Assembly: GCA_043801965.1 (NCBI GenBank)
Contig: JAZDLN010000028.1
Span: 22,288-86,287 of the forward strand
Direction: 5' to 3'
From: Candidatus Falkowbacteria bacterium
GTDB taxonomy: Bacteria > Patescibacteriota > Patescibacteriia > Patescibacteriales > UBA12075
DNA: 64,000 nt
Shown: in pieces, positions 31,024-48,643 of the stretch
Position numbering within the stretch: the first letter of the stretch is position 1
How the letters are laid out: the number at the start of each line of letters is the position of its first letter
Notes under the pieces: generated by a model
Databases searched by the model: none
What the model saw: the letters and a program-made list of their open reading frames with translations, nothing else
Told to the model about the DNA's origin: nothing
Translations under genes and position numbers: made by a program

Positions 31024-31098
31024 GCCGAAATAGCTCAGCGGTAGAGCACCTCCATGGTAAGGAGGGGGTCTCGGGTTCAATCCCCGATTTCGGCTCCA
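31024..31098 (+). tRNA. tRNA-Thr (anticodon GGU), CCA encoded
   Basis: Hand-folded cloverleaf. Acceptor GCCGAAA/TTTCGGC, D-arm GCTC-AGCGGTA-GAGC, anticodon arm CCTCC-ATGGTAA-GGAGG, T-arm TCGGG-TTCAATC-CCCGA, discriminator T, then CCA. Confidence 0.9.
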
Positions 31099-31101
31099 AA
31101 T

Positions 31102-31130
31102 AAAAATCCCCCAAAGGGGATTTTTTATTT
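31102..31130. terminator. Palindromic terminator after tRNA-Thr
   Basis: AAAAATCCCC-CAAA-GGGGATTTTT, flanked by A-rich and T-rich runs. Confidence 0.7.
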
Positions 31131-31430
31131 GGAGTTGAGATTGTAGGATTGAACCCGCCTGAGTAGCTAGGCGAGCAAAAATAGAGACTGATGTTAAAAA
31201 TAGTATAAACAGACACGCTGTCCGCGTGTTGTGGGAATCTTACATGAGAAATAGTTAAAGAAGAAAGATATTGCCCATAAAGATATGTTGGATAAAGTAG
31301 AGCACCCTTCCCACACCCGACACTGAAGCCTGAAAAAGCTACAGGTGTTCAAAGACTATAGTAAAGCCTAACATAATTTTCCACGATATTACAAAACATT
31401 TAGTAATGTTAGGTTTTAGCTTATTTTAAC

Positions 31431-31459
31431 TTGATTTTTGAGCCTAAAAATGGTAGATT
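31431..31459 (+). promoter_or_regulatory. Putative promoter of the island operon
   Basis: TTGATT (31431-31436), 17 nt, TAGATT (31454-31459), 22 nt upstream of the ATG. Confidence 0.3.
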
Positions 31460-31481
31460 AAAGAAGTGTTAAATTACATCT

Positions 31482-34400: not shown

Positions 34401-36038
34401 GCCCAGGCTTTTCCGGCTTTGATAAGGGCAAAGCAGGTGGTGATTATGGGCGATAAGAAACAATTTAGCAATGTAAAAGCAACCCAAGCAAAGACAGAAA
34501 CAAATTTGCAGTACATTAACGACCTTGAAATTTCATTTAAAAAGAATGTTTCAAAAGAAATAACAAAACTGGAAAGGCTTAAAAAATTCAATATCAAAAC
34601 ATCAATATTAGAATTTTTTGAAACCATTAGCAATTTTGACATTCAATTACGGAAACATTTCCGCGGGTATAAGGAATTGATTTCTTATTCCAATCATTTC
34701 TTTTACAGCGATACATTGCAAGTGATGAAAATAAGGGGCAAGAGCATTGATGAGGTTTTAAAAATGACGGTGGTTGACCACGATGGCAGAGTTGAAGCGA
34801 TACCGAAGACAAATAAACCTGAAATTGAATTTATTAAAGAAGAATTAGCGAAGATAAAAGACGGCGGAAAAAAACAGAGCGTTGGCATAATAACTCCGCA
34901 TACTAATCAGCAAAAGATTTTGATTGATGAAATCAGTAAACTTACTGATAAGGATTATTATTTCAATGAGTTGGATTTAAAAATAATGACTTTTGATACC
35001 TGTCAGGGCGAAGAAAGGGATGTGATTTTTTATTCAATGGTTGCAACCAAAGAGAGCGATAGGTTATGGGGTGTGTTTATTAAGGATTTGGAGGCGATTG
35101 ATATTGAGGAGGATGGAAAGATAAGGGCGCAAAGATTAAACGTTGGATTTAGCCGTGCCAAGGAATGTATTCATCTTATTTTAAGCAAGGAGCCTGAAGA
35201 ATACAAAGGCTCCATAAGGGATGCACTATTACATTATAAGAACGAGATTGAAAAAGGGAAGAAAGAACCAACGCCCGATGACGTAGATAATAAATCCCCG
35301 ATGGAGAAACAGGTGTTGAATTGGTTAACTCAAACAAAACTATGGAGAGAAAATGCTAAAAATATTGAACTTAAGCCGCAGTTTCAAGTCGGAAGTTATC
35401 TAAAACAATTAGATAGCAACTACGACCATCCTAGTTTTATCGTAGATTTTTTGCTCATTTACAGGGAAGATGATAATAGAAAGCACAATATTATAATTGA
35501 ATATGATGGTTTTAAGGAGCATTTTGAAAATCTTGAAGCAGTTAATGAGTTCAACTTTGAAAGCCACTATTCAGATGATGATGTATATCGGCAGAAAGTG
35601 CTTGAAGGGTATGGGTATAAATTTTTAAGAATTAACAAATTTAATATCGGCGATAATCCTATTGAAACGCTGGATAAGAGAATTGAAGAATTGATTAAAA
35701 ATACTGGTCAGCAGAATAGTTTTTTAGAAAGTATTCATAGTACGATTGAAGGCCTGGAAAACGGAGATTATAAAGAATGTCCTAAGTGCAAGGAAGTAAA
35801 AGAGATAGCTAAGTTTAAGGATAAGACTTTAATCAGCGGAGTCGGTAGAATTTGTAACGACTGTAAAGGAGCGAGTATATGCAGTACTCAAAAAAATAAG
35901 GCCGTAAAACCTCTGCCTGTATTAAGCTCGCAAACTTGCCCGAGATGCGGAGCGAGGATGATTTTAAGGGGTGGAAGATTTGGAAAATTTTACGGATGTT
36001 CAAAGTATCCTTATTGCAGGGGGACAAGGAAATATTAA
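31482..36038 (+). CDS. Multidomain SF1B (Upf1/DNA2-like, AAA_11/AAA_12-type) helicase with a DUF4011-like N-terminus, a C-terminal Vsr/DUF559-like endonuclease fold and two zinc ribbons
   Basis: Motif I GPPGTGKS (nt 32907-32930, about aa 476). Motif II VIIDEASQ (nt 34377-34391, about aa 966). Also GDKKQ, LRKHFRGYKELISYSNHFFY, TFDTCQGEERDVIFYSMV and LNVGFSRAKE. Then FIVDFLLIY...IIIEYDGFKEHF...YRQKVLEGYGYKFLRI (DUF559/Vsr-like), CPKC...CNDC, and the topoisomerase-type CPRCGARMILRGGRFGKFYGCSKYPYCRGT. N-terminal AKYPIFYIPFEVEV...FIALDSRVYINKKALEFI resembles DUF4011. Confidence 0.85.
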   Translation: MDQKIEKINIKENKSLLFVKEVAKYFMDFLETDFHKRKTPRRNIKFKNDSNLLVGVNLEKYQNFNKLVIGAFNEAFLQSDIKVKKGEYKANIPKNLLDLIKIKVEDIEASDIQDIIKKIAGKLQKHSEVYHEEYDRSLVSSLESVSDIFRNNLVSPFIEKIEKSLENISLGDENTKYLMEEELTDVFLGSIENKITELLKLLVSDKEVDLINEIGSVLGIEEIKAIIIDFFDDFKIADLFSEILEINRNRNILDKQDFYLYFCDVTYNRAKYPIFYIPFEVEVKNDTVFIALDSRVYINKKALEFIVQEYNKEMDVKGGLKADTERIIYLAQGKDNLMDVANGLISEIINYFELSDNIHLINPVKQRARSKKVFITNSCYVSLFDKSDEALVNDYEDILQLLSAGGGVLGEMFNKLVDDFINKEPKVYNLEIDENWDEFATAEKLVIETPIPLNSEQRKIVAALNKEDCKYIAVQGPPGTGKSHTITALVCNAILDNKNVLVLSDKKEALDVVEDKITGTMNKVRTDKHFQNPILRLGKTGNTYSQILSTTSVENIRNNYKAVKKNYSELESNISKTVNSLKEDIEAETLVYEDIDQKEIIELTQYEKHFEKNIILVNEDEVMKCADAVNDLEELRNIFLRFKEVFNEEKNDYVDFLIFHGVPTSCFENIENFSSFLRFLKLLEQDIAGIKEGKEYNLNRKSILIFKDFSSDKINQLENFLERYQALKSSVFGYLFKKKKVEQLNSEFFKIFGATKINEPQKKLNLLEEALNVFRFIKSNDKSSFGLDYVRLVHHLLTNEKYNLVVGEFVRFIDDVNFIQEQSEYQETFKLIGFKQDDFDTYYNNKLTEIPEKDFTHILRYIFLKQKIQKSFSQIPKYSYVNQIQKIEDLVTAKMTYLMDGRLINFYENNKGTAIDIRKIIRAKNKFEKDKFENLKEAFPCILAGIRDYAEYIPLEPEIFDLVIIDEASQVSVAQAFPALIRAKQVVIMGDKKQFSNVKATQAKTETNLQYINDLEISFKKNVSKEITKLERLKKFNIKTSILEFFETISNFDIQLRKHFRGYKELISYSNHFFYSDTLQVMKIRGKSIDEVLKMTVVDHDGRVEAIPKTNKPEIEFIKEELAKIKDGGKKQSVGIITPHTNQQKILIDEISKLTDKDYYFNELDLKIMTFDTCQGEERDVIFYSMVATKESDRLWGVFIKDLEAIDIEEDGKIRAQRLNVGFSRAKECIHLILSKEPEEYKGSIRDALLHYKNEIEKGKKEPTPDDVDNKSPMEKQVLNWLTQTKLWRENAKNIELKPQFQVGSYLKQLDSNYDHPSFIVDFLLIYREDDNRKHNIIIEYDGFKEHFENLEAVNEFNFESHYSDDDVYRQKVLEGYGYKFLRINKFNIGDNPIETLDKRIEELIKNTGQQNSFLESIHSTIEGLENGDYKECPKCKEVKEIAKFKDKTLISGVGRICNDCKGASICSTQKNKAVKPLPVLSSQTCPRCGARMILRGGRFGKFYGCSKYPYCRGTRKY

Positions 36039-36050
36039 ATTGATTTTTAA

Positions 36051-37778
36051 ATGAAGATTACTGAATTAAAAATTCACGGAATAAAATCATACGTTGATGA
36101 AACGGTAAAAATCAATGAATATACTGTTTTTGTCGGCGAAAATAATTCTGGCAAAAGCAATATTTTAAAATGTCTTCTGTGGTTTTTTGGAAAAACAAAA
36201 ATTAGCGAAAAAGATTTGAATTGCCACGTTACTGACGACCCGTTCGTGGAGGTTGAATTTTCTTTAAGTGATAATGAAGAATTTACTCATCCCAAAGAGT
36301 ATTTGGTTAATGGTAAATTTAGAGTCAGAGCTTCGGCGGAAAGAAAAAAAATTTTGGATAAGCCTACTGCTTCCGAACACCGAGGTTATATCGGCGAAGA
36401 AGAAAATTCAATTAAAGACACGAAGCTACTCGGATATAGTAGCGTGGCAAAGTTCAGTTTAGGCGAGGTAATTTATATTCCCTCGGTTAAAGCGTTAAAT
36501 GAGGAATTGAAATTCACGGCGAAAACTGCTTTAAGCCAATTAGTTACAAAATACGTAATAAGTAGAATAAAAGAAGAAGACGAGAAGGGCAACCACTACA
36601 ATCAAATCGTTGACGCAATAAGAAGTTTGTCGGAATATATTAGCAACGGTGAGAACAGTGCATTACAGCAGTTAAAGAAAGACATTTCAAGATATATGCT
36701 CGATTATGACAATATTTCACTGGGCTTTGAACTGGAACCGCCAGACGCAGATAATTTGATTAAATCTTGTTTTAAGCATCATACTGACGTTGACGGTTTG
36801 ACAAGCAAATTACCACTGGACTCGCAGGGAGACGGATTTCAAAGGTCAATGATTTTTTCTTTAATCGCCAATTTAGCGGAATTGAGTAGAAAATCAGAAA
36901 AAAAGAAAACAGCTAAGAACGAATGCACTTTTTATTTGATTGAAGAACCAGAGATATTTTTACATCCTAATCATCAGTCATTTTTCCGTAATAAATTAGA
37001 AGAATTGGCAGCGAGCAACGACTCTCAAGCCATAATTACTTCGCACTCGCCATATTTTTTAAACCACGTTAATCGTTATTCCCAGATAAAGAGAATTTAT
37101 CTTGACGGGAATAAATCAAAGATCGGTGAGGTAAGTGACGATAAAGTTGACATTATTTGCCAGAGTAACGGTTTGTTGGTTGCGAAAGCAAAAAACGACT
37201 GCCGAAACGAAAATGAAAAATGGGATGAGAATGAATTAAAACAAAGGGCGAGTGAAATTGCAAAGGAAGACCATTTGCGTTATTTACTTTGGATTGACCC
37301 GACAAGAGCGAACGCATTTTTATCCAAGAAAGTCGTTCTCGTTGAAGGACCAACCGAAAAAGCTTTTTTTTCCTATATCTTCAATGACCCAAGCGGGGAT
37401 TTTTATGCTGAAAAAAGAACATCCTTCGTTACCGTTATTGACGTTGTGGGAAAATTTCATATCTATAAATTCGCCCAGCTATTAAAGGAATTTAACATTA
37501 AAGTTTGGTGTATATATGACGGCGATGGCGACCAACGAAAAGAAGGAATTTCACACGCCATTTTAAATCAGGCGATAGAGGAGCTTAAAACGAATGGGGT
37601 AATAATTGATACTTTAAGGCTTGACCCTTCACTAGAGCAGTTAATAGGCTTAAGTAAGGATAAACACAAACCAGACGTTGGTTTATATTTGAATTTAGAA
37701 AAAGACAACAATAAATGCAAACAATCAGAAGGTTATAGTAGATTAATTGAATTTACAAGAAATATTATTGATGCTTAA
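36051..37778 (+). CDS. OLD-family nuclease: ABC-type ATPase + Toprim domain (GajA-like)
   Basis: LKIHGIKSY...VFVGENNSGKSNIL (Walker A, nt 36135-36158), LDSQGDGFQRS, Walker B YLIEEPEIFLHP and TSHSP. Toprim VVLVEGPTEKAFF (nt 37336-37358) and IYDGDGD (nt 37517-37531). Starts 12 nt after the helicase stop. Confidence 0.85.
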   Translation: MKITELKIHGIKSYVDETVKINEYTVFVGENNSGKSNILKCLLWFFGKTKISEKDLNCHVTDDPFVEVEFSLSDNEEFTHPKEYLVNGKFRVRASAERKKILDKPTASEHRGYIGEEENSIKDTKLLGYSSVAKFSLGEVIYIPSVKALNEELKFTAKTALSQLVTKYVISRIKEEDEKGNHYNQIVDAIRSLSEYISNGENSALQQLKKDISRYMLDYDNISLGFELEPPDADNLIKSCFKHHTDVDGLTSKLPLDSQGDGFQRSMIFSLIANLAELSRKSEKKKTAKNECTFYLIEEPEIFLHPNHQSFFRNKLEELAASNDSQAIITSHSPYFLNHVNRYSQIKRIYLDGNKSKIGEVSDDKVDIICQSNGLLVAKAKNDCRNENEKWDENELKQRASEIAKEDHLRYLLWIDPTRANAFLSKKVVLVEGPTEKAFFSYIFNDPSGDFYAEKRTSFVTVIDVVGKFHIYKFAQLLKEFNIKVWCIYDGDGDQRKEGISHAILNQAIEELKTNGVIIDTLRLDPSLEQLIGLSKDKHKPDVGLYLNLEKDNNKCKQSEGYSRLIEFTRNIIDA

Positions 37779-39574: not shown

Positions 39575-40237
39575 ATGACAAGAACAAACTTCATAAAAAT
39601 TACTTTGCTCTTCGCGGTCGGAGTATTTATTTCCGGATGCGGAATTCCCGAGCTCCCTTTAGACAATAAGATCGTAAAGATCCGCGAGCAGGATTATGTG
39701 CTTAATTATCCTCAAAAAATCCCTGCCGGAGAGCTCGACCTAATTTTTTTGATCACGCCGGGCGGCAGTGAAAACGAAGCCAACGGGATGATAGAATTAT
39801 GGCGGCCATATCTTATAAAAAATAGCCTGGCGGCTGCGTCTGTAATCGACTGGCAGCAGGATAAACTAAAAAAAGTCCTTACCGACCTACAGCAAAAATA
39901 TAAATTTAGAAAAATCTTTGTAACCGGTTTTTCCAATGGCGGTTATAATAGCTGCTATTTTGCCTCTCTAAACCCTGACCTCACCGACGGCATTATCCCG
40001 ATGGGAGCGTATTGCAGCCATTCCGATACCCTTACTTTACCTAAAGTGCCGATCCTGGCGGTCAACGGAGAAAAAGATACGTGGGCCAGGGGCGACGACC
40101 TTAAGTCGGTAACAAAAGCCAGCCGGGATTTAAAAGCGCACGGCATAAACCAGGAGGAGATGCTTATTCCGGGTTTAGGGCACGAGTATCCGGTGTCAGC
40201 CTTGCCCCGGGTTATCGAGTGGATAAAAAGCCATTAA
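39575..40237 (+). CDS. Lipoprotein alpha/beta-hydrolase (esterase/PHB-depolymerase-like)
   Basis: Lipobox FISGC, nucleophile elbow VTGFSNGG (GxSxG), and late D and H residues (GEKDTW, LGHEYP). Confidence 0.65.
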   Translation: MTRTNFIKITLLFAVGVFISGCGIPELPLDNKIVKIREQDYVLNYPQKIPAGELDLIFLITPGGSENEANGMIELWRPYLIKNSLAAASVIDWQQDKLKKVLTDLQQKYKFRKIFVTGFSNGGYNSCYFASLNPDLTDGIIPMGAYCSHSDTLTLPKVPILAVNGEKDTWARGDDLKSVTKASRDLKAHGINQEEMLIPGLGHEYPVSALPRVIEWIKSH

Positions 40238-41439: not shown

Positions 41440-41499
41440 TTTATGATCTTTAAACGAAGATCATTTTGTTTTTTACAACCCGAAAACAAGGAGAGATCA

Positions 41500-43143
41500 A
41501 TGGCTAACCCGATCGTAAGGAGTTTATTGGAAAAAGATTTCCGGATCGAGATCGAGCCGGACTGGAGCCTGCCGGAAATGGCCGATAACGTTATCGGCGA
41601 AGTCGGACGGCATATAGCCGGCCGTAACGATCTTAAGACTCTCTTGACGATGCTGCCGAAAGGGATCTTTACCCTTTGCCCCGATTCGCCGCCGGAAGAG
41701 CTCCACAAATATATTATTAACCGCTACGGAAAGATCGACAAAAGCGATCCGCGCGTCGTATTGGCGTACATGGAAAATTTCGTTTCCGAAGCCGCCGCGC
41801 TGGAGCGGAGGATAATAGCCCAGGGCGCGGCCCGGATAAAGGATATTAGCGCCGACGAACTTTTCCTCCTTACCGATCCTTTCATGCCGGCCGCCGCCGA
41901 TAAACTCTGGTACCGATGGTACAAGGAGCTTGTCATTCCCCTGGAGATCCTTCCCGAAGCGGAAAAAGCCGCCCGGAAAGCGGAACTTAAAAGCCTCATG
42001 AACGAATACGACTACACGGTTTTTGCCAAGGGCGAGCGTCTGGCCTGGGCGCGGGCTTTTCCGGACGAGATCGCGGAATTAACCCGCGCTTTAACCGCGC
42101 TCGGGAACCGCCTGCGGGACAAAAGCCTTAAAAGGTACTTAAGCTACCTCGCGCGGGCGTATACCTGCGCGAAGACCGAAGATCTCGAGAAGAGATGGAC
42201 GGAGGTCGATTACGCCTGGATCGATATCCCGAATAATACCCGGGTATTCCCGATACACGGCATGGAAGCCGGCTACGAGCATCCGTGCGGCGTTTCGCCG
42301 GAATGGAACATCGTTGTCAGGCTCGACTATGGAAAGAAGGAGATCGGGGAGATACGGGAGGCCGCGCCCGGAGTGGCCGGGTCTTGCGGAGCGGATGCCG
42401 GGCTTTTGAAGCATAAGCTCGACCGCGTCGATATCGGCGTTTTCTATACCGCCGTCTGGGCCGGCAATTCCATGAATTTCCGTATCGCCGGCCAGGCCGT
42501 GCCTAACCGGCAGGAAGTATTAAAGCGGGGCGGTAAGATATTCATCGATCTGGACAGCGAAAAACTCGCGGTCGAGAGATACCGGGACATGCTCGATAAA
42601 TATCTGCCGGCGGAAACGGCGAAGATACTTAAGGCGCAGATAAGCGTACTAAGCATGATCGAGCACACGGCCGGGCACGAAGTGTCGCATCCGGCGGGCC
42701 GGAACGAAGAGATCGACCGGAAACTGGGAAGCGCCTTGAAGCTTCTGGAAGAGGCGAAAGCGACCATGAGCGGCAATCTCATAAACGAATCAAGGAACAG
42801 GGAAAACCGCCTGCATATCGTGGCCGAGACGATCGCCCGCTTCTGCCGCTTTTTCTATAAGACCTCCCTGGAAAACCCCTCCGCGACGCAGTATGTCTGG
42901 GAGAATATGATCGCCTGCCGGACGATGCACGAGGCCGGAGTGATCAGGATGGGTAAGAATTGCATCGAGGTCGACCTGGAAAATGCCAAAGGACCGGATT
43001 GGTTCGACCGTCTGGAAAAATTCGTGAGCAACATATTCGCGGCTTATGAGGCCGGCGACAGCGAAGCCCTCGAAAAGACGCACCGGGAATTATGCGGCCG
43101 CGATGGTATCGTCGCCGATATCATCGCTCTTGTTAATAAATAG
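41500..43143 (+). CDS. M49 (dipeptidyl-peptidase III)-like metallopeptidase with a pentapeptide HEVSH motif
   Basis: HTAGHEVSHPAG (HExxH), followed about 27 residues later by LLEEAKATMSG (EExKA-type second zinc motif). Start moved from 41443 to the ATG at 41500, which has an SD. Confidence 0.5.
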   Translation: MANPIVRSLLEKDFRIEIEPDWSLPEMADNVIGEVGRHIAGRNDLKTLLTMLPKGIFTLCPDSPPEELHKYIINRYGKIDKSDPRVVLAYMENFVSEAAALERRIIAQGAARIKDISADELFLLTDPFMPAAADKLWYRWYKELVIPLEILPEAEKAARKAELKSLMNEYDYTVFAKGERLAWARAFPDEIAELTRALTALGNRLRDKSLKRYLSYLARAYTCAKTEDLEKRWTEVDYAWIDIPNNTRVFPIHGMEAGYEHPCGVSPEWNIVVRLDYGKKEIGEIREAAPGVAGSCGADAGLLKHKLDRVDIGVFYTAVWAGNSMNFRIAGQAVPNRQEVLKRGGKIFIDLDSEKLAVERYRDMLDKYLPAETAKILKAQISVLSMIEHTAGHEVSHPAGRNEEIDRKLGSALKLLEEAKATMSGNLINESRNRENRLHIVAETIARFCRFFYKTSLENPSATQYVWENMIACRTMHEAGVIRMGKNCIEVDLENAKGPDWFDRLEKFVSNIFAAYEAGDSEALEKTHRELCGRDGIVADIIALVNK

Positions 43144-43162
43144 AACATTTAAAACGGACAAA

Positions 43163-43195
43163 CCCCTGATTCGCTACGGATCAGGGGTGTTTTTA
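43163..43195 (+). terminator. Rho-independent terminator
   Basis: CCCCTGAT-TCGCTACGG-ATCAGGGG followed by TGTTTTT. Confidence 0.7.
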
Positions 43196-43426
43196 TGCAT
43201 ACAAGGAAATCGACCGGCAACGATCGTAGTCGTCGGCACGGATCGATTCCCGCCCGACCGGCAGGCCCGGTCCCTGATTGACTTTTGTTTTGACAAAGCC
43301 GGGCAAACATGATAATTTATTAAATCGATTCGGTTCATTACAATTGAATATTTTTCAGGATAAAATGGCCAATATCAGATGATATTATTTGCCGCCAAGG
43401 CAAAATTTTCAAAGGAGGGTCTTAAG

Positions 43427-44398
43427 ATGATAGTTTCAAGAAATTCAGTAAAACGATGGGTCACCTGGATTTTTATGCTGCTTTTCGGCTGGCACTTCGC
43501 GGGCATCATCGGCGTGGTTCTGTGGGACGGAAACGGCACGCCTCTTTACCGGGTCAGGGAAGAGCACGCTCAGGTGCTTACCCTTTTAAACGGCAGCCGG
43601 ATGATCGATACGGACGTCGGATTGCATCTCAAATGGTGGGCCTTGAATCCGGCCAAATGGGTATTTAACACGAAGGAACAATCGCTCCGCATCGAATCGA
43701 GCTATCTCGACAACAACGCGGCTCCGCACCCGATCCAGGCTTCGGACAAGATAAAATTCCTGGGAACCGGCTTTTGGCAGTACCAGGTAGTCGATCAGCG
43801 CCAATTCTGCATAAAAATGGGCAAGAACGCCCTGGAGCAGCTGGCCAACGATTTAAACGGACTGGCCAAGGGCGTTATCCAGTCCCGGGGCATCGAAGAT
43901 ATCGTCAGCCAGCTGGCCGAGGTGAAAAGGGCCGTGGAAGGATCAGCGGAAGCGATTTTGTCGATCGAGAAGAAATACGGCGTCGACGTGATCTCTTTTA
44001 CCATGACGAGCGCCACCTATCCGGACGAGATGAACGCCAGTTCCGCCGAGGCCAAAAGCATCAGGATAGTAAACGAAGCGAAAAAAGAGTCGGCTAATGA
44101 CGCCGGCGCCGCTTTGGAAAGATTGTCCGCGGCTTACGGCAAGCTGATCGAAGACTTCGTGAACAAATCCGGAGTAAAGACCGAAGCCGGGAGAATGCAG
44201 GCCTTAAAAACATTCGATAAGATCATGCTCATGAAAAGCATAGAAAACCGGCCGGACAACACCGTGATCGTTTTTTCCGGAGACGGCTCAGCGCCGAATA
44301 TGACCCTGCCTAATCCCAACAGCACGGAGATCAGGATCGATAAGGAGAGGGAGTTATTGCGGCCCAAAACCGCCGATAATGAGCGGGAAAGGCGGTAA
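43427..44398 (+). CDS. SPFH/band-7 (prohibitin/stomatin-like) membrane protein
   Basis: N-terminal TM (WVTWIFMLLFGWHFAGIIGVVLW), an SPFH-like beta/alpha core (...VDVISFTMTSATYPDEMN) and an Ala/Glu-rich coiled-coil tail. A strong SD (AAGGAGGG) lies 7 nt before ATG 43427. Confidence 0.7.
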   Translation: MIVSRNSVKRWVTWIFMLLFGWHFAGIIGVVLWDGNGTPLYRVREEHAQVLTLLNGSRMIDTDVGLHLKWWALNPAKWVFNTKEQSLRIESSYLDNNAAPHPIQASDKIKFLGTGFWQYQVVDQRQFCIKMGKNALEQLANDLNGLAKGVIQSRGIEDIVSQLAEVKRAVEGSAEAILSIEKKYGVDVISFTMTSATYPDEMNASSAEAKSIRIVNEAKKESANDAGAALERLSAAYGKLIEDFVNKSGVKTEAGRMQALKTFDKIMLMKSIENRPDNTVIVFSGDGSAPNMTLPNPNSTEIRIDKERELLRPKTADNERERR

Positions 44399-44400
44399 CG

Positions 44401-47400
44401 ATGTCATACAACCTTCACGGCGCCGATCTTCCCGAGAACATGCGGGAAACGGAAAGGCCGTTGGTCATTACCCTCTCCGCGGAGAGAGAGCGTGAATTGG
44501 AAGAACTCTTAACCCTGTGGGATTTCGACACCATGAAATTCCTTAAAGGCTATCTCACGGCCCACCTGGCGCGATGTAAAAAGCGACCGGGTTGGCGCGA
44601 TAGATTCGCCGTCAAAAAGGAATTGAAGCTGAATTTGCTTAAAAAGCCGCCGGTTTTTTTGGATCAGGAAGAGAGGTTCAGGGAAACGGGGGAAAAGAAC
44701 GCGGCCAAGGCATTCGAGAAGATTTTCGTCGAGGAATTGAATTTCTCCGATACGGCCTATCTCCTGGACCGGACCAGAAAGGAAACCGCCAACGAGGTCG
44801 TACCGGAAGAGCTGGTCGATCTCCTGCGAAAATCATTCTGGGTCCATCTTAAAAAAGAAAAGATCTCCGTTCCGGGCGTTCCGTTAAAGCCTTTCTTTCT
44901 GTTCGTCGGTCCGACCGGTTCCGGCAAGACCCATACGGTCAAAGCCGCCATCGAGCAGGCGATTTTCGACAATCGTCTGATCATTGAACGGGATCCGGAC
45001 GAAGAAAGGGCGGAGATCGTAAAAAAATACGCTTATCTGAAAATCCCATTGGCCGGACTGATCGCGCCTCCGAAGGAGCTTATCGAACTTGATAAGCGGA
45101 TCGAGCGCGATAAGACGCGGATGAAACTGCTGAAGCGCCTCGGGAAAAAATACTGGAGAAAATACGCGTCCCGAAAGCTTAAGGAGATGGAAGACAGCTG
45201 TCCCGGCCGGTCGGACGATTGCTTTACCCGTGAATCTTACGTTGTAAGCTACCGCAGCATAGTTCCGAGCGACGTGGCCACCGCCCTGCACGGAGAAACG
45301 GGAAACCTTTTCCGGCGGGCGATGCGTCCCGAGGACAAGCCGACGATCAGGCATCTCGAGGAAGCGCACGCCATCCTTGTCAAAAACGACAAGCGCCATG
45401 ACGGCGCCGCTGATCCGCAGAACCGCAGCCTGTCGACCGCCGTTAACGTGGTCCTGGACGAAATATCCGACGGAAAAAGGGAATGCCTGCTTATCGCGGA
45501 CACCCACAGCCCGGGCGATATCGCGCCGGACATATTCCGCCGCTTTGACGAGATGGGCAGGGTCATAGACGTTTCGGAATACTGGAAAAACACGGAATGC
45601 CTGGAGAAGCTTATCGCCCTCGAAGCCAGACAGCACAAAGTGCGCCCGGAGGACGAAGCGCTAAAACAGATCACGAAAAGAGTGGCCTCTATCTTCAGCA
45701 ACAAAGGGATCACGATCACCCCGTCTTACGTGCGAAAACTGATCGCTTCCGTGATCGAGGCCAAAGACGACCTTAAGATCGGATATTTCCATGACGAACT
45801 ACTGGTCAGGGATTCATTCAAGAACGTAGCCCGGAATTCCCACGGGGATTTTTTCGGAAAGATCGTCAGAAGCCCGAAAACCGAAGACGGTTTTTCCTGG
45901 GAAGATTACCAGGGGGAAAGGGTAAAGCTCGACTTCGCGGAAAAACTTCTCTCGACCGCTTTTTACGGCGGAGATTCCAAGGGCGTCGTGCTTACCGGTC
46001 CGGCCGGATCGGGTAAGACCTTTTTGACCCAGGTCGTGGCCGCCGCCAATCCGCAGATCAGCTGCCTTATCGTCAAGATGGACGACCTCTATAAAGCGGG
46101 ACAGGGCTACGAAGGCATAATCTCGGCCCTGGACGATACCTATAATATCGCCAGGATGCTCGCCCCCTCGCTGGTCGTCATAAACGAGGGCGACGCTCTG
46201 GCAAAAAGGCGCAACACCCAGGCCTCCGACCCGTCGGACAAGATCACCAATAAATTCCTCGATATCTTAGACGGCGAACAAAGCATTAAAGGGGTTTTCA
46301 CGGTTCTGACCACGAATTTGCTGGAAAACATGGATCCGGCGATAGTCAGGCCCGGCCGCCTCGAGATCATGAATATCGACGGGAAGCTTAAGGAAGGGGA
46401 GATTTATAACATCATCCGCAAGAAACTGGCCAAAGAGCCGAGGTCGGCCGAGGTTACCGACAGGGAAATTTACGTGACCGCCAAGAGCATCAGCAATATT
46501 CCGGCCGGTTACGCCGATTTCGCTGAAAAGCTCATGGATTCGCGGAGGCTGGAATTCGAGATCATCCAGGCTTACCGGAAGACCTTCAACGATGAGCCGG
46601 CTAAGATCAACGATTTCATCCTCTATAACGCCAAAAGCGTGATGCGGATACTCGAAGCCATCGATTTCGATCCTAAAGTCATCAGCCGGGCAAAAAAAGA
46701 TATTCAGGCGCTGTTCGAGCACAAGGAAGATATTTACCGCCTCCTCGAAAAAATCGGGGATTCTAAGGATTACGAGCTTAAACTGTCCCACCTGGTGAAC
46801 GCCAAAGCCGATATCATGAAAAACCCCCTAAAGCAGGGATTCAAAGCTTTGGACGAATTTCTGAAAGATGAATTATCGGACACGCCCCAGGTAGGGAAGA
46901 TCTGCGGCGCCGCTTACGGCAACAATACCGGTCTGCTTGTGCCGATAAATACCAACCTCGTGCCGAGGTCCGGCGAAAGCGGAAACGTTTTCGTGACCGG
47001 CGCCATCAAGGGGCCGATCACCCAGGAAGATCATTCGGAGATGACCCTGCAGTCGGCCGACGAGGCTTTAACGCTGAACGCGCATTATTTTCAGAATATC
47101 CTCGCCTCCGATCCGCGCTGCCGGCATATCGATGCCGCCGCGATAATGGGAAAGATCCTCAAAAACCGCCGGATCCACCACCAGATCGTGACGGTAAATT
47201 ACCAGGGCGGCGGTCCGAGCGCCGGTTTCGCCCTGGCGATCAACACCTTGTCCGTACTTTTAAATATCCGGGTTTACCACGATTTCGGCATCACGGGCGC
47301 TCCCGGCACGAGAGGGAAAAGCGGGGACAAGGCCGGCTCTTCGGTCATGATCGGGGGCGAGGACAAAAAAACCGAGAGAGTGCTCATTGATCTTGACCGG

Positions 47401-47778
47401 ATGTACGTTCCGGCCAAGAATTTCACGATTCCCCTGGAACAGCAGGAAGCTTATTGGGAGGAAGGCAAGATCGTTCTGCCGGTTTACGACTACAGCGATC
47501 TTATCCCGGAAGTGCTCCATCTCGATGCCACCCGAACCTTGGTCAAAGATCTGATCGCGAAACGCATCGATCTTAATAAAAAATCTATCTTCGAGTCCGA
47601 GGAAAAGCTCGCGGGCGCGAGGACGGAGATCTCCGGGATCGAAAAGACCCTTAAAACCGGGGTTGAATTCGAGATCAGGCGCCGATTGGTCTCCTACTAT
47701 AATTTTTTCGTGAGCCCGGAATGCGACGAATACGCCAGCATCGGGCATATTCTCGAGAAACACGACTCGCTCAGATAG
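44401..47778 (+). CDS. Tandem AAA+ ATPase fused to a Lon (S16)-type protease domain (1125 aa)
   Basis: Walker A 1 GPTGSGKT (nt 44908-44931). Walker A 2 GPAGSGKT (nt 45997-46020), with LVVINEGDAL, TTNLLENMDPAIVRPGRLE (sensor 1 and Arg finger, classical AAA clade). C-terminal GGGPSAGFALAI (Ser codon 47218-47220) and IGGEDKK (Lon Ser-Lys dyad context). Starts 2 nt after the SPFH stop. Confidence 0.8.
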   Translation: MSYNLHGADLPENMRETERPLVITLSAERERELEELLTLWDFDTMKFLKGYLTAHLARCKKRPGWRDRFAVKKELKLNLLKKPPVFLDQEERFRETGEKNAAKAFEKIFVEELNFSDTAYLLDRTRKETANEVVPEELVDLLRKSFWVHLKKEKISVPGVPLKPFFLFVGPTGSGKTHTVKAAIEQAIFDNRLIIERDPDEERAEIVKKYAYLKIPLAGLIAPPKELIELDKRIERDKTRMKLLKRLGKKYWRKYASRKLKEMEDSCPGRSDDCFTRESYVVSYRSIVPSDVATALHGETGNLFRRAMRPEDKPTIRHLEEAHAILVKNDKRHDGAADPQNRSLSTAVNVVLDEISDGKRECLLIADTHSPGDIAPDIFRRFDEMGRVIDVSEYWKNTECLEKLIALEARQHKVRPEDEALKQITKRVASIFSNKGITITPSYVRKLIASVIEAKDDLKIGYFHDELLVRDSFKNVARNSHGDFFGKIVRSPKTEDGFSWEDYQGERVKLDFAEKLLSTAFYGGDSKGVVLTGPAGSGKTFLTQVVAAANPQISCLIVKMDDLYKAGQGYEGIISALDDTYNIARMLAPSLVVINEGDALAKRRNTQASDPSDKITNKFLDILDGEQSIKGVFTVLTTNLLENMDPAIVRPGRLEIMNIDGKLKEGEIYNIIRKKLAKEPRSAEVTDREIYVTAKSISNIPAGYADFAEKLMDSRRLEFEIIQAYRKTFNDEPAKINDFILYNAKSVMRILEAIDFDPKVISRAKKDIQALFEHKEDIYRLLEKIGDSKDYELKLSHLVNAKADIMKNPLKQGFKALDEFLKDELSDTPQVGKICGAAYGNNTGLLVPINTNLVPRSGESGNVFVTGAIKGPITQEDHSEMTLQSADEALTLNAHYFQNILASDPRCRHIDAAAIMGKILKNRRIHHQIVTVNYQGGGPSAGFALAINTLSVLLNIRVYHDFGITGAPGTRGKSGDKAGSSVMIGGEDKKTERVLIDLDRMYVPAKNFTIPLEQQEAYWEEGKIVLPVYDYSDLIPEVLHLDATRTLVKDLIAKRIDLNKKSIFESEEKLAGARTEISGIEKTLKTGVEFEIRRRLVSYYNFFVSPECDEYASIGHILEKHDSLR

Positions 47779-47802: not shown

Positions 47803-47829
47803 CCACCGGATAAATCGGTGGTTTTTTTT
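47803..47829. terminator. Bidirectional terminator between convergent genes
   Basis: CCACCG-GATAAAT-CGGTGG with an A-run upstream and T8 downstream. Confidence 0.7.
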
Positions 47830-47878: not shown

Positions 47879-48643
47879 TTACAGATTACGGATCTTTTCC
47901 TGGGTGGCGAAATATTCGCGCAGGCAGTTGCCGCAACGGTGGCAGGCGGTCGTGCCGAGTTCGCCCTCGATCTTGCCGCAGGAATAGACCCATCGATTGT
48001 TGGGATCGAAGTATTTTCCGCCCCGCATGATCTTGCGCCAGCCGGCGGTGGTTATGGCCCAGTAAGAATTAAGGGTCCTTTGCCGGTAGATGTAATGTTT
48101 TTTGTGCTGAGCCGGAATCGAATCTTCGTCGTAGTGGGCCATGAAAGTCAACACAATCGGAATATTCCGTTCGGAATAATATTCAATGCATTTCTGCATG
48201 ATATGCCGGTTCCAGAAATTAGTCCGGAAGCGCACGAACATCAGATTCCGGGGAATGGGATCAAGCGCGTGGAAACTCTTGTCCGTCATTTCCCCTCGGT
48301 TGACGGTCAGTACGACCGGGCGCATCTGACCGTTGACTTTGAAACCCTCAAGATCATGCGGAAAGGATGTGTTGAAGAAAAAGTCTTCATAACCATATTT
48401 TTCGACCATGGAGAGGACCAGATCGCGGTGCTCGTTCGAGTCGTTGCCGTCGTTCACCCGGATAACCCGGCCGCGCGCCTCTTCGGGCGAGGGCATATTG
48501 GGGAGATTTTCGGAGAGCGGTTCGAGATAAGAGCGTCCGCTCTGAAAAAAACAGTCTTTGCAGCGGCCGGAACAGGTTCCGGTCTGTGGAATACAGCATA
48601 TAATGCCACTGCCGCGGGTTTTGGGGTTTTCTTTGTAGGGCAT
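47879..48643 (-). CDS. Putative Fe-S / radical-SAM-like protein (CX3CX2C), function unknown
   Basis: N-terminal CSGRCKDCFF (CxxxCxxC followed by an aromatic residue) and a C-terminal CHRCGNC cluster. I do not recognise a family. Confidence 0.45.
   Translation of the reverse strand: MPYKENPKTRGSGIICCIPQTGTCSGRCKDCFFQSGRSYLEPLSENLPNMPSPEEARGRVIRVNDGNDSNEHRDLVLSMVEKYGYEDFFFNTSFPHDLEGFKVNGQMRPVVLTVNRGEMTDKSFHALDPIPRNLMFVRFRTNFWNRHIMQKCIEYYSERNIPIVLTFMAHYDEDSIPAQHKKHYIYRQRTLNSYWAITTAGWRKIMRGGKYFDPNNRWVYSCGKIEGELGTTACHRCGNCLREYFATQEKIRNL

What the first reader, a model, noticed from the sequence alone, without database searches (positions are those of the whole stretch)
43427..47778. SPFH/band-7 membrane protein translationally coupled to a double-AAA+/Lon-protease fusion
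Seen in sequence:
- The SPFH gene (strong SD, N-terminal TM, coiled-coil tail) ends 2 nt before a 1125-aa ORF.
- That ORF has a degenerate first P-loop domain (GPTGSGKT) with no clear Walker B.
- It also has a classical-clade AAA module (GPAGSGKT, INEGD, RPGRLE) and a C-terminal Lon S16 domain (GPSAG serine, GGEDKK lysine).

Established knowledge: SPFH scaffolds partner with membrane proteases, as in HflK/C-FtsH and stomatin-NfeD/STOPP. Lon normally uses an HCLR-clade AAA+ module, not an FtsH/Cdc48-like one.

Inference: this is a new SPFH-caged ATP-dependent protease in which a soluble Lon-type protease with FtsH-like AAA chemistry is recruited to the membrane by the SPFH partner. The Walker B Asp-to-Asn change (NEGD) may mean altered ATPase behaviour.
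Basis: partly seen in the sequence, partly recalled or inferred. Interest (0 to 1): 0.75.

Follow-up and report, generated by a model that had tools for sequence, protein, structure and literature searches.

The report
SPFH-paired tandem-AAA Lon protease operon
This is a two-gene operon, always inherited as a pair, that encodes a membrane-anchored SPFH scaffold protein and an undescribed type of ATP-dependent protease: a Lon-type Ser-Lys protease driven by two Cdc48-like AAA domains instead of Lon's usual motor.

Summary
The window holds a bicistronic operon bounded by terminators. It has an AAGGAGG ribosome-binding site, a 323-aa SPFH/Band_7 protein with one N-terminal TM (43427-44398), a 2-nt gap, and a 1125-aa protein (44401-47778).

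The large protein has a helical N-domain, a classical AAA D1 split by a ~90-aa insertion, a classical AAA D2, a helical linker, a Lon S16 protease domain and a C-terminal helical extension.

- **Protease residues:** Ser940, Thr965 and Lys990 are invariant in 87/87 homologs.
- **Pairing:** the SPFH gene lies immediately upstream in 85/85 loci with upstream DNA. Three of three reciprocal look-ups agree. No third gene is conserved.
- **Distribution:** mostly Desulfobacterales, including cultured Desulfosarcina variabilis. It also occurs in CPR bacteria and DPANN archaea.
- **Literature:** I found no description of it.

- D1 has a recognisable Walker B-like "EE".
- The D2 Walker B Asp-to-Asn change occurs only in the small window clade. 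The other 82 sequences have DE.
- The "caged protease" picture is doubtful. The SPFH partner has a strongly basic N-tail before its TM, which predicts an HflK/C-like topology with the cage on the far side of the membrane from the TM-less protease.

Verdict: a real, new variant of AAA protease with an obligate SPFH partner. The mechanism is inferred only.

The parts
43162..43188 (+). Intrinsic terminator of the upstream gene (DUF7897/CiaB-like, 41443-43143). It marks the 5' boundary of the operon.
   Evidence: 12-bp stem, 7 GC pairs, followed by GTTTTTAT.
43337..43366 (+). Promoter-like site (ATTACA-18-TAAAAT) in the 240-nt AT-rich intergenic region. Weak evidence only.
   Evidence: Consensus scan, 9/12 matches. 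The number of such sites is no higher than in shuffled sequence.
43412..43418 (+). Shine-Dalgarno sequence AAGGAGG, 8 nt before the SPFH start codon.
   Evidence: Read directly in the sequence.
43427..44398 (+). SPFH/Band_7 membrane protein, 323 aa.
   Evidence: Pfam Band_7 E=4.2e-7. The AF2 model with Foldseek gives only SPFH proteins in the top 50. dN/dS is 0.15.
43427..43456 (+). Basic N-terminal tail (MIVSRNSVKR, +3, no acidic residues), predicted cytoplasmic.
   Evidence: In the Desulfobacterota clade the equivalent tail carries the conserved motif FLRRAFVKxxLRR.
43457..43525 (+). Single transmembrane helix, residues 11-33.
   Evidence: Kyte-Doolittle 19-residue window maximum 2.06. A 21-23-aa TM is present in all 78 partners. 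AF2 helix 5-32.
43565..44095 (+). SPFH (Band_7) domain, residues 47-223.
   Evidence: Pfam. The core has pLDDT 71-91 and superposes on the stomatin SPFH domain with target-normalised TM 0.75-0.82.
44036..44245 (+). Long helices (coiled-coil CC1/CC2 region), residues 204-273.
   Evidence: AF2 helices 204-248 and 253-273.
44255..44311 (+). Conserved C-terminal motif DNTVIVFSGDGSAPNMTLP (family pattern hVIxx...TLP). It may be the strand that closes SPFH cages.
   Evidence: L294 is invariant in both partner alignments; P295 is invariant in A3 and nearly invariant in A2. The cage-closing role is inferred by analogy only.
44401..47778 (+). AAA-AAA-Lon fusion protein, 1125 aa, starting 2 nt after the SPFH stop.
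   Evidence: dN/dS is 0.08.
44401..44850 (+). Helical N-terminal domain, residues 1-150, with no known family.
   Evidence: No Pfam hit. Mostly helical in the AF2 model.
44851..45870 (+). D1, a classical AAA domain. Its features are Walker A GPTGSGKT (44908-44931), a ~90-aa helical insertion (44968-45240), the pore loop ATALHGETGN (45277-45306), Walker B-like IRHLEEAH (45346-45369) and the arginine pair in IFRRFDE (45532-45552).
   Evidence: Pfam AAA E=1.1e-8 for D1 alone. Aligns to p97 D1. Motif conservation. AF2.
45898..46500 (+). D2, a classical AAA domain. Its features are Walker A GPAGSGKT (45997-46020), Walker B LVVINEGD with Asn595 (46183-46185), sensor-1 LTTN (46306-46317) and the SRH arginines in AIVRPGRLE (46339-46365).
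   Evidence: Pfam AAA. Best NCBIfam matches are CDC48, PAN and FtsH. Best PDB matches are Afg2, Cdc48 and p97. Motif conservation.
46501..46875 (+). Helical linker domain between D2 and the protease, residues 701-825. The gene is split at about residue 733 in a DPANN lineage.
   Evidence: AF2 helices 701-824. Fission.
46876..47520 (+). Lon (S16) protease domain. Ser940 is at 47218-47220 (GGPSAG), Thr965 lies in GITGAP (47287-47304) and Lys990 is at 47368-47370 (IGGEDKK).
   Evidence: Pfam Lon_C. Profile against PDB gives LonB domains at 4e-9. Ser, Thr and Lys are invariant in 87/87. The 49-residue Ser-Lys spacing holds in 87/87.
47521..47775 (+). C-terminal helical extension, residues 1041-1125, with no known family.
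   Evidence: AF2 helices 1042-1062, 1071-1104 and 1114-1120. No Pfam hit.
47803..47821 (.). Bidirectional intrinsic terminator, 25 nt after the AAA-Lon stop codon. It marks the 3' boundary of the operon.
   Evidence: 7-bp stem with 5 GC pairs and a T8 tail on the + strand. Also scored on the - strand.

Best explanation
The two genes encode one machine: a membrane-associated, ATP-dependent protease system.

Shown by computation:
1. They form a discrete bicistronic operon with tightly coupled translation.
2. The first product is a single-pass membrane protein with an SPFH domain, long helices and a conserved C-terminal strand motif. These are the parts that build the oligomeric rings or cages of HflK/C, stomatin and prohibitin.
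3. The second product is soluble. It has a helical N-domain and two classical-clade AAA domains arranged as in Cdc48/p97. D2 has every catalytic motif. D1 has Walker A, a Glu-Glu Walker B and an arginine pair. A helical linker then leads to a Lon-type protease domain with an invariant Ser-Thr-Lys active site.
4. The two genes are never found apart.

Inferred:
- The large protein forms a hexamer of stacked D1, D2 and protease rings. It threads substrates through its central pore into a Lon-type chamber. It works like Lon or FtsH but has a Cdc48-type double motor.
- The SPFH partner most likely sits N-in/C-out. Its SPFH assembly would be on the outer face of the membrane, as in HflK/C. Only its conserved, basic, amphipathic N-tail and its TM helix are available to the cytoplasmic protease.
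- The ring of N-tails docks the AAA-Lon under the membrane patch that the SPFH ring fences off. There the AAA-Lon extracts and degrades membrane proteins, and possibly the SPFH subunits themselves.

On this reading it is a functional analogue of HflK/C-FtsH and prohibitin-m-AAA. It differs in that the protease has no membrane anchor of its own and uses Ser-Lys chemistry.

In the window's own clade the D2 Walker B is Asn-Glu, so ATP turnover is probably slower. The gene is nonetheless under strong purifying selection.
For: - **Operon anatomy:** terminator, SD, a 2-nt junction and a second terminator.
- **Junction spacing:** across 85 loci the median is -1 nt, and 72 of 85 are <=20 nt.
- **Pairing:** 85/85 loci and 3/3 reciprocal look-ups. 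Flanking genes are otherwise unrelated across clades.
- **SPFH fold:**
- **Classical AAA tandem:** best NCBIfam matches are CDC48, PAN and FtsH. Best PDB matches are Afg2, Cdc48 and p97. Foldseek aligns 620-770 columns to p97, Cdc48 and Rix7. In both D1 and D2 the AF2 model has the short helix between beta2 and alpha2 and no pre-sensor-1 hairpin.
- **Catalytic motifs:** conserved over 87 sequences.
- **Lon domain and active site:**
- **No TM in the AAA-Lon:** the maximum 19-residue hydropathy is <=1.67.
- **N-tail:** charge and conservation.
- **Purifying selection:**
- **Natural gene fission:** a DPANN lineage splits the gene into separate AAA and Lon genes. This shows the motor and the protease are separable modules that still work together.
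Against: - There is no experimental evidence of any kind, and no multimer model could be run.
- The topology call rests on the positive-inside rule. In my control the simple K+R difference did not separate E. coli HflK/HflC (periplasmic) from QmcA (cytoplasmic). Only the presence of a charged N-tail did. A cytoplasmic SPFH cage is therefore not excluded.
- If the SPFH domain is outside, the proposed contact is only a 10-22-residue tail. That tail is short and less conserved in the window's own clade.
- Neither AAA ring has a conserved aromatic pore-loop residue, which is unusual for a processive unfoldase.
- In the window clade both rings have non-canonical Walker B motifs.
- The Lon domain of the AF2 model has low confidence, pLDDT 36-65 in several stretches.
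- Substrates are unknown.
Confidence: 0.5

Rival explanations
1. The SPFH domain faces the cytoplasm, as in QmcA or stomatin. It builds a cage that encloses or caps the AAA-Lon hexamer and controls substrate access.
For: - The strict co-inheritance and tight translational coupling suggest an extensive, stoichiometric complex.
- The SPFH partner has the helices and the conserved C-terminal strand motif seen in cage-forming SPFH proteins.
- My charge-bias control discriminates poorly.
- The AAA-Lon has family-specific N- and C-terminal helical domains that could bind a cage.
Against: - The N-tail before the TM carries +3 to +7 with no acidic residues in 78 partners: mean net charge +4.8 against +2.0 after the TM.
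- Translocating such a tail outward, as a QmcA-type orientation would require, is unfavourable. QmcA itself has no residues before its TM.
- The hydrophobic segment is 21-23 aa. That is the length of a membrane-spanning helix and is too short for a stomatin-type hairpin.
Confidence: 0.25
2. The SPFH protein is the dedicated substrate rather than a scaffold or regulator. The AAA-Lon grips its N-tail, extracts it from the membrane and degrades or trims it. This would control assembly and turnover of the SPFH microdomain. The analogy is the STOPP/NfeD protease, which cleaves its operon-partner stomatin.
For: - There is a precedent for an operon-encoded protease cleaving its SPFH partner (PH1510/PH1511, cited in PMC2636767 and PMC13086221).
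- The accessible, conserved basic N-tail and the disordered C-tail could serve as initiation sites.
- Cdc48- and Msp1-type classical AAA proteins extract membrane-anchored proteins. This is established knowledge.
Against: - Making a 1125-aa double-ring protease solely to turn over one co-translated partner is uneconomical.
- Nothing distinguishes this reading from the adaptor role. In known systems adaptors are often also substrates.
- There are no direct data.
Confidence: 0.15
3. The pair is an anti-phage or conflict module. The SPFH protein senses membrane perturbation and unleashes the AAA-Lon protease as an abortive-infection effector.
For: - The distribution is patchy across distant lineages, including CPR bacteria, DPANN archaea and Marinimicrobia, which suggests horizontal transfer.
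- There are weak PADLOC matches to TRIP13 and IetA. These hit the AAA part only.
- The family-specific Lon module also occurs fused to a caspase domain (P0187).
- In the window a low-GC Old-nuclease/helicase island lies ~5.6 kb upstream.
Against: - The SPFH partner has no PADLOC match, either in the window or in D. variabilis.
- In Desulfobacterales the pair is widespread, and its neighbours are housekeeping genes such as FeoB, a tRNA methyltransferase, CinA and transporters.
- The operon has backbone GC (52-53%), unlike the 31-34% GC island, and four genes separate it from that island.
- The PADLOC hits reflect generic classical-AAA similarity.
Confidence: 0.08
4. The Lon-like domain is non-proteolytic and serves only as an oligomerisation ring, as in RadA/Sms, ComM or BrxL. 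On this reading the protein is a Cdc48-like remodelling ATPase and not a protease.
For: Lon-fold domains without catalytic residues are fused to several P-loop ATPases. This is established knowledge from my own recollection and was not tested here.
Against: - Ser940, Thr965 and Lys990 and their surrounding motifs (GGPSAG, GITGAP, IGGxxxK) are invariant in 87/87 sequences that are only 35% identical overall.
- They align to the catalytic residues of LonB and LonA.
Confidence: 0.02

Closest known systems
HflK/C-FtsH (bacteria) and prohibitin-m-AAA protease (mitochondria)
   Same: - An SPFH membrane scaffold is partnered with an ATP-dependent protease whose motor is a classical-clade AAA domain.
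- The predicted SPFH topology (N-in, bulk outside) matches HflK/C.
- The SPFH fold matches HflK/C and prohibitin at Foldseek E of about 1e-8 to 1e-7.
   Different: - The protease here is a Ser-Lys Lon domain, not an M41 zinc metalloprotease.
- It has two AAA domains instead of one.
- It has no TM helices or periplasmic domain, so it cannot sit inside an external cage as FtsH does.
- There is one SPFH gene, not an HflK/HflC paralog pair.
- The genes are adjacent and co-translated, whereas hflKC and ftsH are unlinked in E. coli.
Lon proteases (MEROPS S16: LonA, LonB, LonC, LonBA)
   Same: - The C-terminal protease domain is homologous (Pfam Lon_C; LonB protease domains at E=4e-9).
- The Ser-Lys dyad and the conserved Thr are present.
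- ATPase and protease lie on one polypeptide.
- Pro precedes the catalytic Ser, as in A-type centres (PMC9569914).
   Different: - The ATPase is a tandem of classical-clade AAA domains, not a single HCLR-clade AAA+ module.
- There is no LON N-domain and no LonB membrane anchor.
- Ser and Lys are separated by 49 residues in 87/87 sequences, against exactly 42 in LonA and LonB (PMC9569914).
- A ~125-residue helical linker and an 85-residue C-terminal extension are added.
- By sequence the protease domain is closer to LonB, yet it has an A-type Pro-Ser centre.
Cdc48/p97/VAT and Afg2/Rix7 (type II classical AAA ATPases)
   Same: - The D1-D2 tandem has the same fold and order (Foldseek E~1e-18 over 620-770 columns).
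- D2 has canonical motifs.
- The D1 pore loop 'LAGE' resembles that of p97 D1.
   Different: - No double-psi-barrel N-domain is present. The N-domain is helical with no Pfam hit.
- The TIGR01243 CDC48 score is 63 against a cutoff of 803.
- D1 carries a ~90-aa insertion and a Glu-Glu Walker B.
- D2 lacks the aromatic pore loop.
- A protease is fused in cis, whereas Cdc48/VAT hand substrates to a separate 20S proteasome.
Stomatin-STOPP/NfeD (PH1511-PH1510) and QmcA-YbbJ
   Same: An SPFH protein and a serine protease are encoded in one operon. The SPFH fold is shared.
   Different: - The partner there is a ClpP-fold, ATP-independent membrane protease with an NfeD OB-fold domain.
- No NfeD gene appears in any of the 13 annotated contexts here.
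- The gene order is the reverse of that in E. coli, where ybbJ lies downstream of qmcA.

Membership tests
SPFH/Band_7 superfamily (upstream protein) | Band_7 (PF01145) profile match above the gathering score | tested here: met
   30.6 bits against a cutoff of 23.6, E=4.2e-7. Partners in other loci carry precomputed Band_7 hits.
SPFH/Band_7 superfamily (upstream protein) | SPFH alpha/beta fold followed by long coiled-coil helices | tested here: met
   AF2 core pLDDT is 71-91. All top-50 Foldseek hits are SPFH proteins. Rmsd is 2.2-2.7 A to the stomatin SPFH domain. Helices at 204-248 and 253-273.
SPFH/Band_7 superfamily (upstream protein) | Membrane anchor at the N-terminus | tested here: met
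   A single 21-23-aa TM is present in 78/78 partners.
SPFH/Band_7 superfamily (upstream protein) | Formation of large ring or cage oligomers | not testable with these tools
   Only monomer prediction is available. The conserved C-terminal hVIxx...TLP motif is suggestive only.
HflK/HflC | Two paralogous SPFH subunits encoded together; match to the HflK/HflC family models | tested here: not met
   There is one SPFH gene per locus. No NCBIfam HflK/HflC hit was found; only a 0.057 GldL chance hit.
HflK/HflC | N-in, periplasmic SPFH topology | tested here: inconclusive
   The basic N-tail predicts N-in. The control shows the measure discriminates weakly.
SPFH-NfeD operons | Adjacent NfeD (PF01957) gene | tested here: not met
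   No NfeD appears in 13 annotated contexts. No third conserved gene was found in 89 loci.
Lon protease family (MEROPS S16) | Lon_C proteolytic domain | tested here: met
   Pfam Lon_C scores 26.2 bits against a cutoff of 21.1. The family profile hits AfLonB 4e-9, MjLonB 1e-8, TonLonB 1e-7 and EcLonA 3e-4.
Lon protease family (MEROPS S16) | Catalytic Ser-Lys dyad on proper alignment | tested here: met
   Ser940 and Lys990 are invariant in 87/87. They align to the catalytic Ser and Lys of AfLonB.
Lon protease family (MEROPS S16) | Exactly 42 residues between the catalytic Ser and Lys (LonA and LonB, per PMC9569914) | tested here: not met
   49 residues in 87/87. A 7-residue insertion is seen in the alignment to AfLonB.
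Lon protease family (MEROPS S16) | Single HCLR-clade AAA+ module with a pre-sensor-1 beta-hairpin | tested here: not met
   There are two AAA domains. In both, the AF2 model shows only a short loop between alpha3 and beta4. The best matches are CDC48, PAN and FtsH, not Lon, Clp or HslU. TIGR00763 lon scores 42.8 against a cutoff of 608.
Lon protease family (MEROPS S16) | ATP-dependent proteolytic activity | not testable with these tools
   Requires biochemistry.
Classical AAA clade (PF00004; Cdc48, FtsH, PAN, Vps4) | Walker A, Walker B (hhhhDE), sensor-1 Asn, and a second region of homology with two arginines | tested here: met
   D2 has GPxGxGKT, hhhhDE in 82 of 88 aligned sequences (NE in 6), TTN, and R650/R653 conserved in 87/87. 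D1 meets this partially: it has Walker A, an EE Walker B and an RR pair, but sensor-1 is Asp or His.
Classical AAA clade (PF00004; Cdc48, FtsH, PAN, Vps4) | Short helix inserted between beta2 and alpha2; no pre-sensor-1 hairpin | tested here: met
   The AF2 model has H289-292 in D1 and H560-563 in D2. Loops alone precede beta4 in both domains.
Cdc48/p97 family proper | Double-psi barrel N-domain; TIGR01243 above cutoff | tested here: not met
   The N-domain is helical with no Pfam hit. TIGR01243 scores 63.2 against a cutoff of 802.65.
FtsH | N-terminal TM helices and a C-terminal M41 zinc protease | tested here: not met
   There is no TM segment. TIGR01241 scores 47.8 against a cutoff of 600 and matches the AAA part only.
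Known anti-phage systems (PADLOC-DB) | Significant match of both components to one defence system's models | tested here: not met
   The SPFH partner has 0 families. The AAA-Lon has only AAA-level matches to TRIP13, IetA and mad8.

The most novel reading that the evidence does not exclude
This is a further, previously unrecognised class of prokaryotic ATP-dependent protease. A Cdc48-like double-ring AAA unfoldase is coupled in cis to a LonB-like Ser-Lys protease ring, or in trans in a DPANN lineage. It depends obligatorily on a trans-membrane SPFH scaffold whose cage lies on the opposite face of the membrane. Docked to the scaffold's cytoplasmic N-tails, the soluble machine would act as an extractase-protease for membrane proteins confined in the SPFH-fenced patch. 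That would make it a compact prokaryotic counterpart of the erlin/prohibitin-type logic of SPFH on one side and an AAA motor on the other. It would work without membrane anchoring of the protease and without aromatic pore loops.
Probability: 0.25. Interest if true: 0.8.

Novelty: new variant of a known kind. Interest (0 to 1): 0.65.

Why it matters
- **A new motor-protease combination.** Bacterial and archaeal energy-dependent proteolysis is usually described as a handful of machines: Clp, HslUV, Lon, FtsH and the proteasome with its ATPases. Here a Lon protease ring is driven by a different, Cdc48-type double motor. AAA motors and protease chambers have therefore been recombined more freely than the textbook list implies.
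- **A natural split form.** A DPANN lineage encodes the motor and the protease as separate genes, which gives a ready-made two-component version for study.
- **A third SPFH-protease pairing.** The absolute linkage to an SPFH gene adds a third protease chemistry to the recurring SPFH-protease partnership, after the FtsH zinc protease and the ClpP-like STOPP/NfeD. It is a genetically compact two-gene system for asking what SPFH scaffolds do for proteases.
- **A tractable question.** If the predicted topology is right, the system asks how a scaffold on one side of the membrane controls a soluble protease on the other.
- **A cultured host.** The system occurs in Desulfosarcina variabilis, so experiments are feasible.

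Tried and rejected
- **Single-sequence homolog searches** badly under-sampled both families: 29 hits for the AAA-Lon and 2 for the SPFH protein. Profile and pattern-based searches were needed.
- **phmmer of the SPFH protein against PDB** found nothing. The fold had to be shown through AF2 and Foldseek.
- **A third conserved gene.** The commonest neighbour is an alpha/beta hydrolase directly upstream. It is present in only 24/89 loci, all Desulfobacterota. It is unrelated to the alpha/beta hydrolase in the window at 39575-40237 (BLASTP E=33).
- **Defence-system membership.** There is no convincing PADLOC match.
- **Topology by plain K+R difference.** The control with E. coli HflK, HflC and QmcA gave -2 for all three. 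I therefore rely on the presence, length and charge of the N-tail and mark the inference as moderate.
- **My first adjacency filter** mis-scored five loci, because stop-to-stop ORFs extend upstream of the true start. The corrected count is 85/85.
- **My start-codon heuristic** placed the window's AAA-Lon start at Met14, a 41-nt gap. I keep 44401, which is the first ATG and is preceded by GGAAAGG. Either start leaves the genes tightly linked.
- **Foldseek against afdb50** was unavailable.
- **A non-catalytic Lon-like domain and chance adjacency** were both considered and rejected.
- **Literature searches** for SPFH plus Lon/AAA, for Cdc48-like plus Lon, and for Lon subfamily classifications found no description of this architecture or pairing.

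Full report
**1. What is in the window**

ORF listing shows two co-directional genes: 43379/43427-44398 and 44401-47778. A 12-bp-stem terminator at 43162-43188 closes the upstream DUF7897/CiaB-like gene. A 240-nt AT-rich spacer follows. AAGGAGG at 43412-43418 sits 8 nt before the ATG at 43427. That start is therefore preferred over the SD-less ATG at 43379. The SPFH stop TAA is followed by CG and then the ATG at 44401. A bidirectional terminator at 47803-47821 follows the second stop. This is a self-contained bicistronic operon. The region has the contig's backbone GC of 52-53%.

**2. The SPFH protein (323 aa)**

- Pfam Band_7 passes its gathering score (E=4.2e-7).
- The protein has a basic N-tail (MIVSRNSVKR) and one 23-residue TM.
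- An AF2 model built on 25 partner sequences has a confident core (pLDDT 71-91) and long helices at 204-248 and 253-273.
- Its 50 best Foldseek matches in the PDB are all SPFH proteins: stomatin, HflK/C, prohibitin, erlin, flotillin and QmcA. The core superposes on stomatin at 2.2-2.7 A.
- A C-terminal motif (hVIxx...TLP) is conserved across partners that are otherwise about 20% identical.

**3. The 1125-aa protein**

Domain searches give PF00004 AAA (E=6.7e-27, two stretches) and Lon_C (E=6.9e-6, above threshold). The best NCBIfam models for the ATPase are CDC48, PAN and FtsH. The best PDB sequences are Afg2, Cdc48, p97, VAT and Rix7.

An AF2 model (mean pLDDT 77.6) shows these parts:

| Part | Residues |
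|---|---|
| Helical N-domain | 1-150 |
| D1, with a ~90-residue helical insertion between the Walker A helix and beta2 | ~165-490 |
| D2 | ~528-700 |
| Helical linker | 701-825 |
| Lon domain | ~830-1040 |
| C-terminal helices | 1042-1120 |

Foldseek aligns 620-770 columns to p97, Cdc48 and Rix7 protomers, so both rings match (E~1e-18). Both D1 and D2 have the short helix between beta2 and alpha2 and lack a pre-sensor-1 hairpin. From established knowledge of AAA+ classification, these are the marks of the classical clade as opposed to the HCLR clade that Lon belongs to.

D1 alone passes Pfam AAA. It aligns to p97 D1 with IRHLEE on IFIDEL and FRRF on the arginine-finger segment.

**4. The protease domain**

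A profile of the C-terminal region hits the protease domains of A. fulgidus LonB (4e-9), M. jannaschii LonB (1e-8), T. onnurineus LonB (1e-7) and E. coli LonA (3e-4). GGPSAG, GITGAP and IGGxxxK align on the catalytic Ser, the conserved Thr and the catalytic Lys.

Across 87 homologs all three residues are invariant. The spacing between Ser and Lys is 49 residues in every sequence. LonA and LonB have exactly 42 (PMC9569914). The residue before the Ser is Pro, which is an A-type centre, although the domain is closer in sequence to LonB.

The domain is thus a genuine and presumably active S16 protease. It fits none of the described subfamilies.

**5. Family-wide motif survey**

- **D2:** Walker A, sensor-1 Asn and both SRH arginines are conserved throughout.
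- **D2 Walker B:** DE in 82 sequences and NE in 6. The NE sequences are the window, its 95% ortholog, and the Marinimicrobia and related sequences. The split DPANN genes also carry INEGD. The Asp-to-Asn change is therefore a clade feature, not a family feature.
- **D1:** it keeps Walker A, IRH[ILV]EEAH, LDEIxxG and a YRRF arginine pair. Its pore loop (QTALAGEPGN) resembles the LAGE loop of p97 D1.
- **D2 pore loop:** NP[IVW][DEH]G, with no conserved aromatic residue. This is unusual for the translocating ring of an unfoldase and remains unexplained.

**6. Is the pairing conserved?**

The first word-based search found only about 25 homologs. Six independent contexts all had a gene of about 300-325 aa directly upstream: a Band_7 hit in five, none on record for the sixth, which the partner profile later matched. 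Flanking genes were unrelated.

A pattern scan of one genome per GTDB species found 339 matching stretches. The best 80 are all full length. Using HMMs built from the two families, 85 of 85 loci with any upstream DNA carry the SPFH partner immediately upstream on the same strand. The four remaining loci begin inside the AAA-Lon gene.

The junction is tight: the median is -1 nt, 43 of 85 overlap, and 72 of 85 are <=20 nt. Starting instead from SPFH partners, three of three have the AAA-Lon downstream. No third gene is conserved. The commonest neighbour, an alpha/beta hydrolase, is in 24/89 loci from one clade only.

**7. Distribution and size of the family**

Most members are Desulfobacterales and other Desulfobacterota, including complete genomes and the cultured Desulfosarcina variabilis str. 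Montpellier. Some are from Desulfuromonas, Geothermobacter and Deferrisomatales.

The window's clade comprises Candidatus Falkowbacteria (CPR), Marinimicrobia and DPANN archaea. An exhaustive profile search of 1.84 billion 50%-identity representatives finds about 10 full-length representatives. Below them the scores fall sharply to generic multi-AAA proteins that match only D2. A profile of the partner finds 837 SPFH sequences, and the top 120 are all of partner type.

Between two Falkowbacteria MAGs both genes are under purifying selection, with dN/dS 0.15 and 0.08.

**8.

The AAA-Lon has no hydrophobic segment of TM quality and needs ATP, so it is cytoplasmic.

The partner has a single 21-23-residue TM in 78/78 cases. 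The TM is preceded by a tail with mean net charge +4.8 and no acidic residues. The net charge after the TM is +2.0. In the Desulfobacterota clade the tail carries a conserved amphipathic basic motif, FLRRAFVKxxLRR. R12 is present in 98%, V15 in 84%, and R20/R21 in 81-84%. The motif holds 2.69 bits per column, against 1.5-1.9 for the disordered termini. The TM has near-invariant Tyr, Ala and Tyr positions.

This predicts N-in/C-out. The SPFH assembly would then be on the outer face, as in HflK/C, which PMC2636767 contrasts with the cytoplasm-facing YbbK/QmcA.

As a control I applied the same measure to E. coli HflK, HflC and QmcA. The plain K+R difference is -2 for all three, so it does not discriminate. 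What differs is that QmcA has no residues at all before its TM. The inference is therefore moderate, not strong. I put about 65-70% on the external orientation.

If that orientation is right, the protease cannot be inside the cage. The conserved N-tail and the TM are the only parts of the partner that the protease can reach.

**9. Mechanism proposed**

Shown:
- the operon
- the folds
- the catalytic residues
- obligate co-inheritance
- the separability of motor and protease (point 10)

Inferred:
- a hexameric stack of D1, D2 and Lon rings that threads substrates into the protease chamber
- docking beneath an SPFH-fenced membrane patch through the partner's N-tails
- extraction and degradation of membrane proteins, and possibly of the scaffold itself

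In function this resembles HflK/C-FtsH and prohibitin-m-AAA. In membership it is neither FtsH, nor Cdc48, nor any described Lon subfamily (see the membership table).

Rivals: a cytoplasmic cage (0.25), the partner as dedicated substrate (0.15), a defence module (0.08) and a non-catalytic Lon-like ring (0.02).

**10. Things seen on the way**

- In a DPANN lineage the gene is split at about residue 733 into an AAA gene (717-724 aa) and a Lon gene (399-403 aa) that overlap by 11-23 nt. Two versions only 71% identical end at the same position, so the fission is inherited.
- One representative, P0187, fuses a caspase domain to this family's Lon and C-terminal module.
- The window also holds a low-GC island next to tRNA-Thr, with an Old-family nuclease and a 1518-aa helicase.

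**11. Novelty**

Searches of the held literature covered SPFH-protease operons, Lon subfamilies, Lon_C domain architectures, Cdc48-like prokaryotic ATPases and band-7 gene neighbourhoods. None found this architecture or this pairing. Databases name the proteins only 'AAA family ATPase' and 'SPFH domain-containing protein'.

I rate it a new variant of a known kind, namely SPFH-partnered AAA proteases and the Lon family. Interest is 0.65.

Limits:
- All evidence is computational.
- No multimer modelling was possible.
- The afdb50 library was unavailable.

Noticed in passing
L089 7065-10416; L092 4058-7400; P0005, P0006: In a DPANN (Pacearchaeota/Nanoarchaeota) lineage the AAA-Lon gene is split into an AAA D1-D2 gene (717-724 aa) and a separate Lon gene (399-403 aa). 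They overlap by 11-23 nt in the +1 frame, still directly after the SPFH gene. P0005 and P0006 are only 71% identical yet end at the same alignment position (window residue ~733), so the fission is inherited and not an assembly error.
   Followed up: partly
P0187 (595 aa; library representative, no locus): A caspase (Peptidase_C14, E=5.5e-18) domain is fused to this family's Lon and C-terminal helical module (267 bits to profile positions 807-1119). So the family-specific Lon module also exists without AAA domains. Its genomic context is unknown.
   Followed up: no
window 31024-37778: A low-GC segment (31-34% against ~52% backbone) lies immediately after tRNA-Thr (31024-31098). It encodes a 1518-aa SF1 helicase with a Top1-type zinc ribbon (PADLOC PDC-S37 and MkoC-like, E=5e-47) and an Old-family ATPase/TOPRIM nuclease (PADLOC Old, E=4e-59). 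This looks like a horizontally acquired defence island about 5.6 kb upstream of the operon.
   Followed up: partly
window 47879-48643 (- strand): The convergent downstream 254-aa ORF has a CX3CX2C motif (CSGRCKDC) near its N-terminus, reminiscent of radical-SAM enzymes. It has no significant Pfam, NCBIfam or PADLOC match.
   Followed up: no
L004 6284-7021 and 23 other Desulfobacterota loci: An alpha/beta hydrolase of about 245 aa (Hydrolase_4/Peptidase_S9-like) sits directly upstream of the SPFH gene on the same strand in 24/89 loci, at a median distance of 146 nt. It is found only in the Desulfobacterota clade and is unrelated to the window's own alpha/beta hydrolase at 39575-40237.
   Followed up: partly
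window 44401-47778 and family alignment A1: Neither AAA ring has a conserved aromatic pore-loop-1 residue. D1 has ALAGEPG and D2 has NP[IVW][DEH]G. In the window clade both rings also have non-canonical Walker B motifs (EE or LE in D1, NE in D2), despite strong purifying selection.
   Followed up: partly
window 41443-43143: The gene upstream of the operon is a DUF7897/CiaB-like protein (Pfam E=6e-14; NCBIfam invasion_CiaB E=4e-16, far below its cutoff). It is a separate transcription unit with its own terminator and is not conserved next to the pair elsewhere.
   Followed up: partly
window 1-64000: The contig alternates between ~50-53% GC and ~31-44% GC blocks (30-40 kb and 48-52 kb). The identical protein is deposited under a Candidatus Falkowbacteria MAG (92-kb contig). 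I did not examine whether the mosaic reflects horizontal transfer or membrane-protein-rich regions.
   Followed up: no
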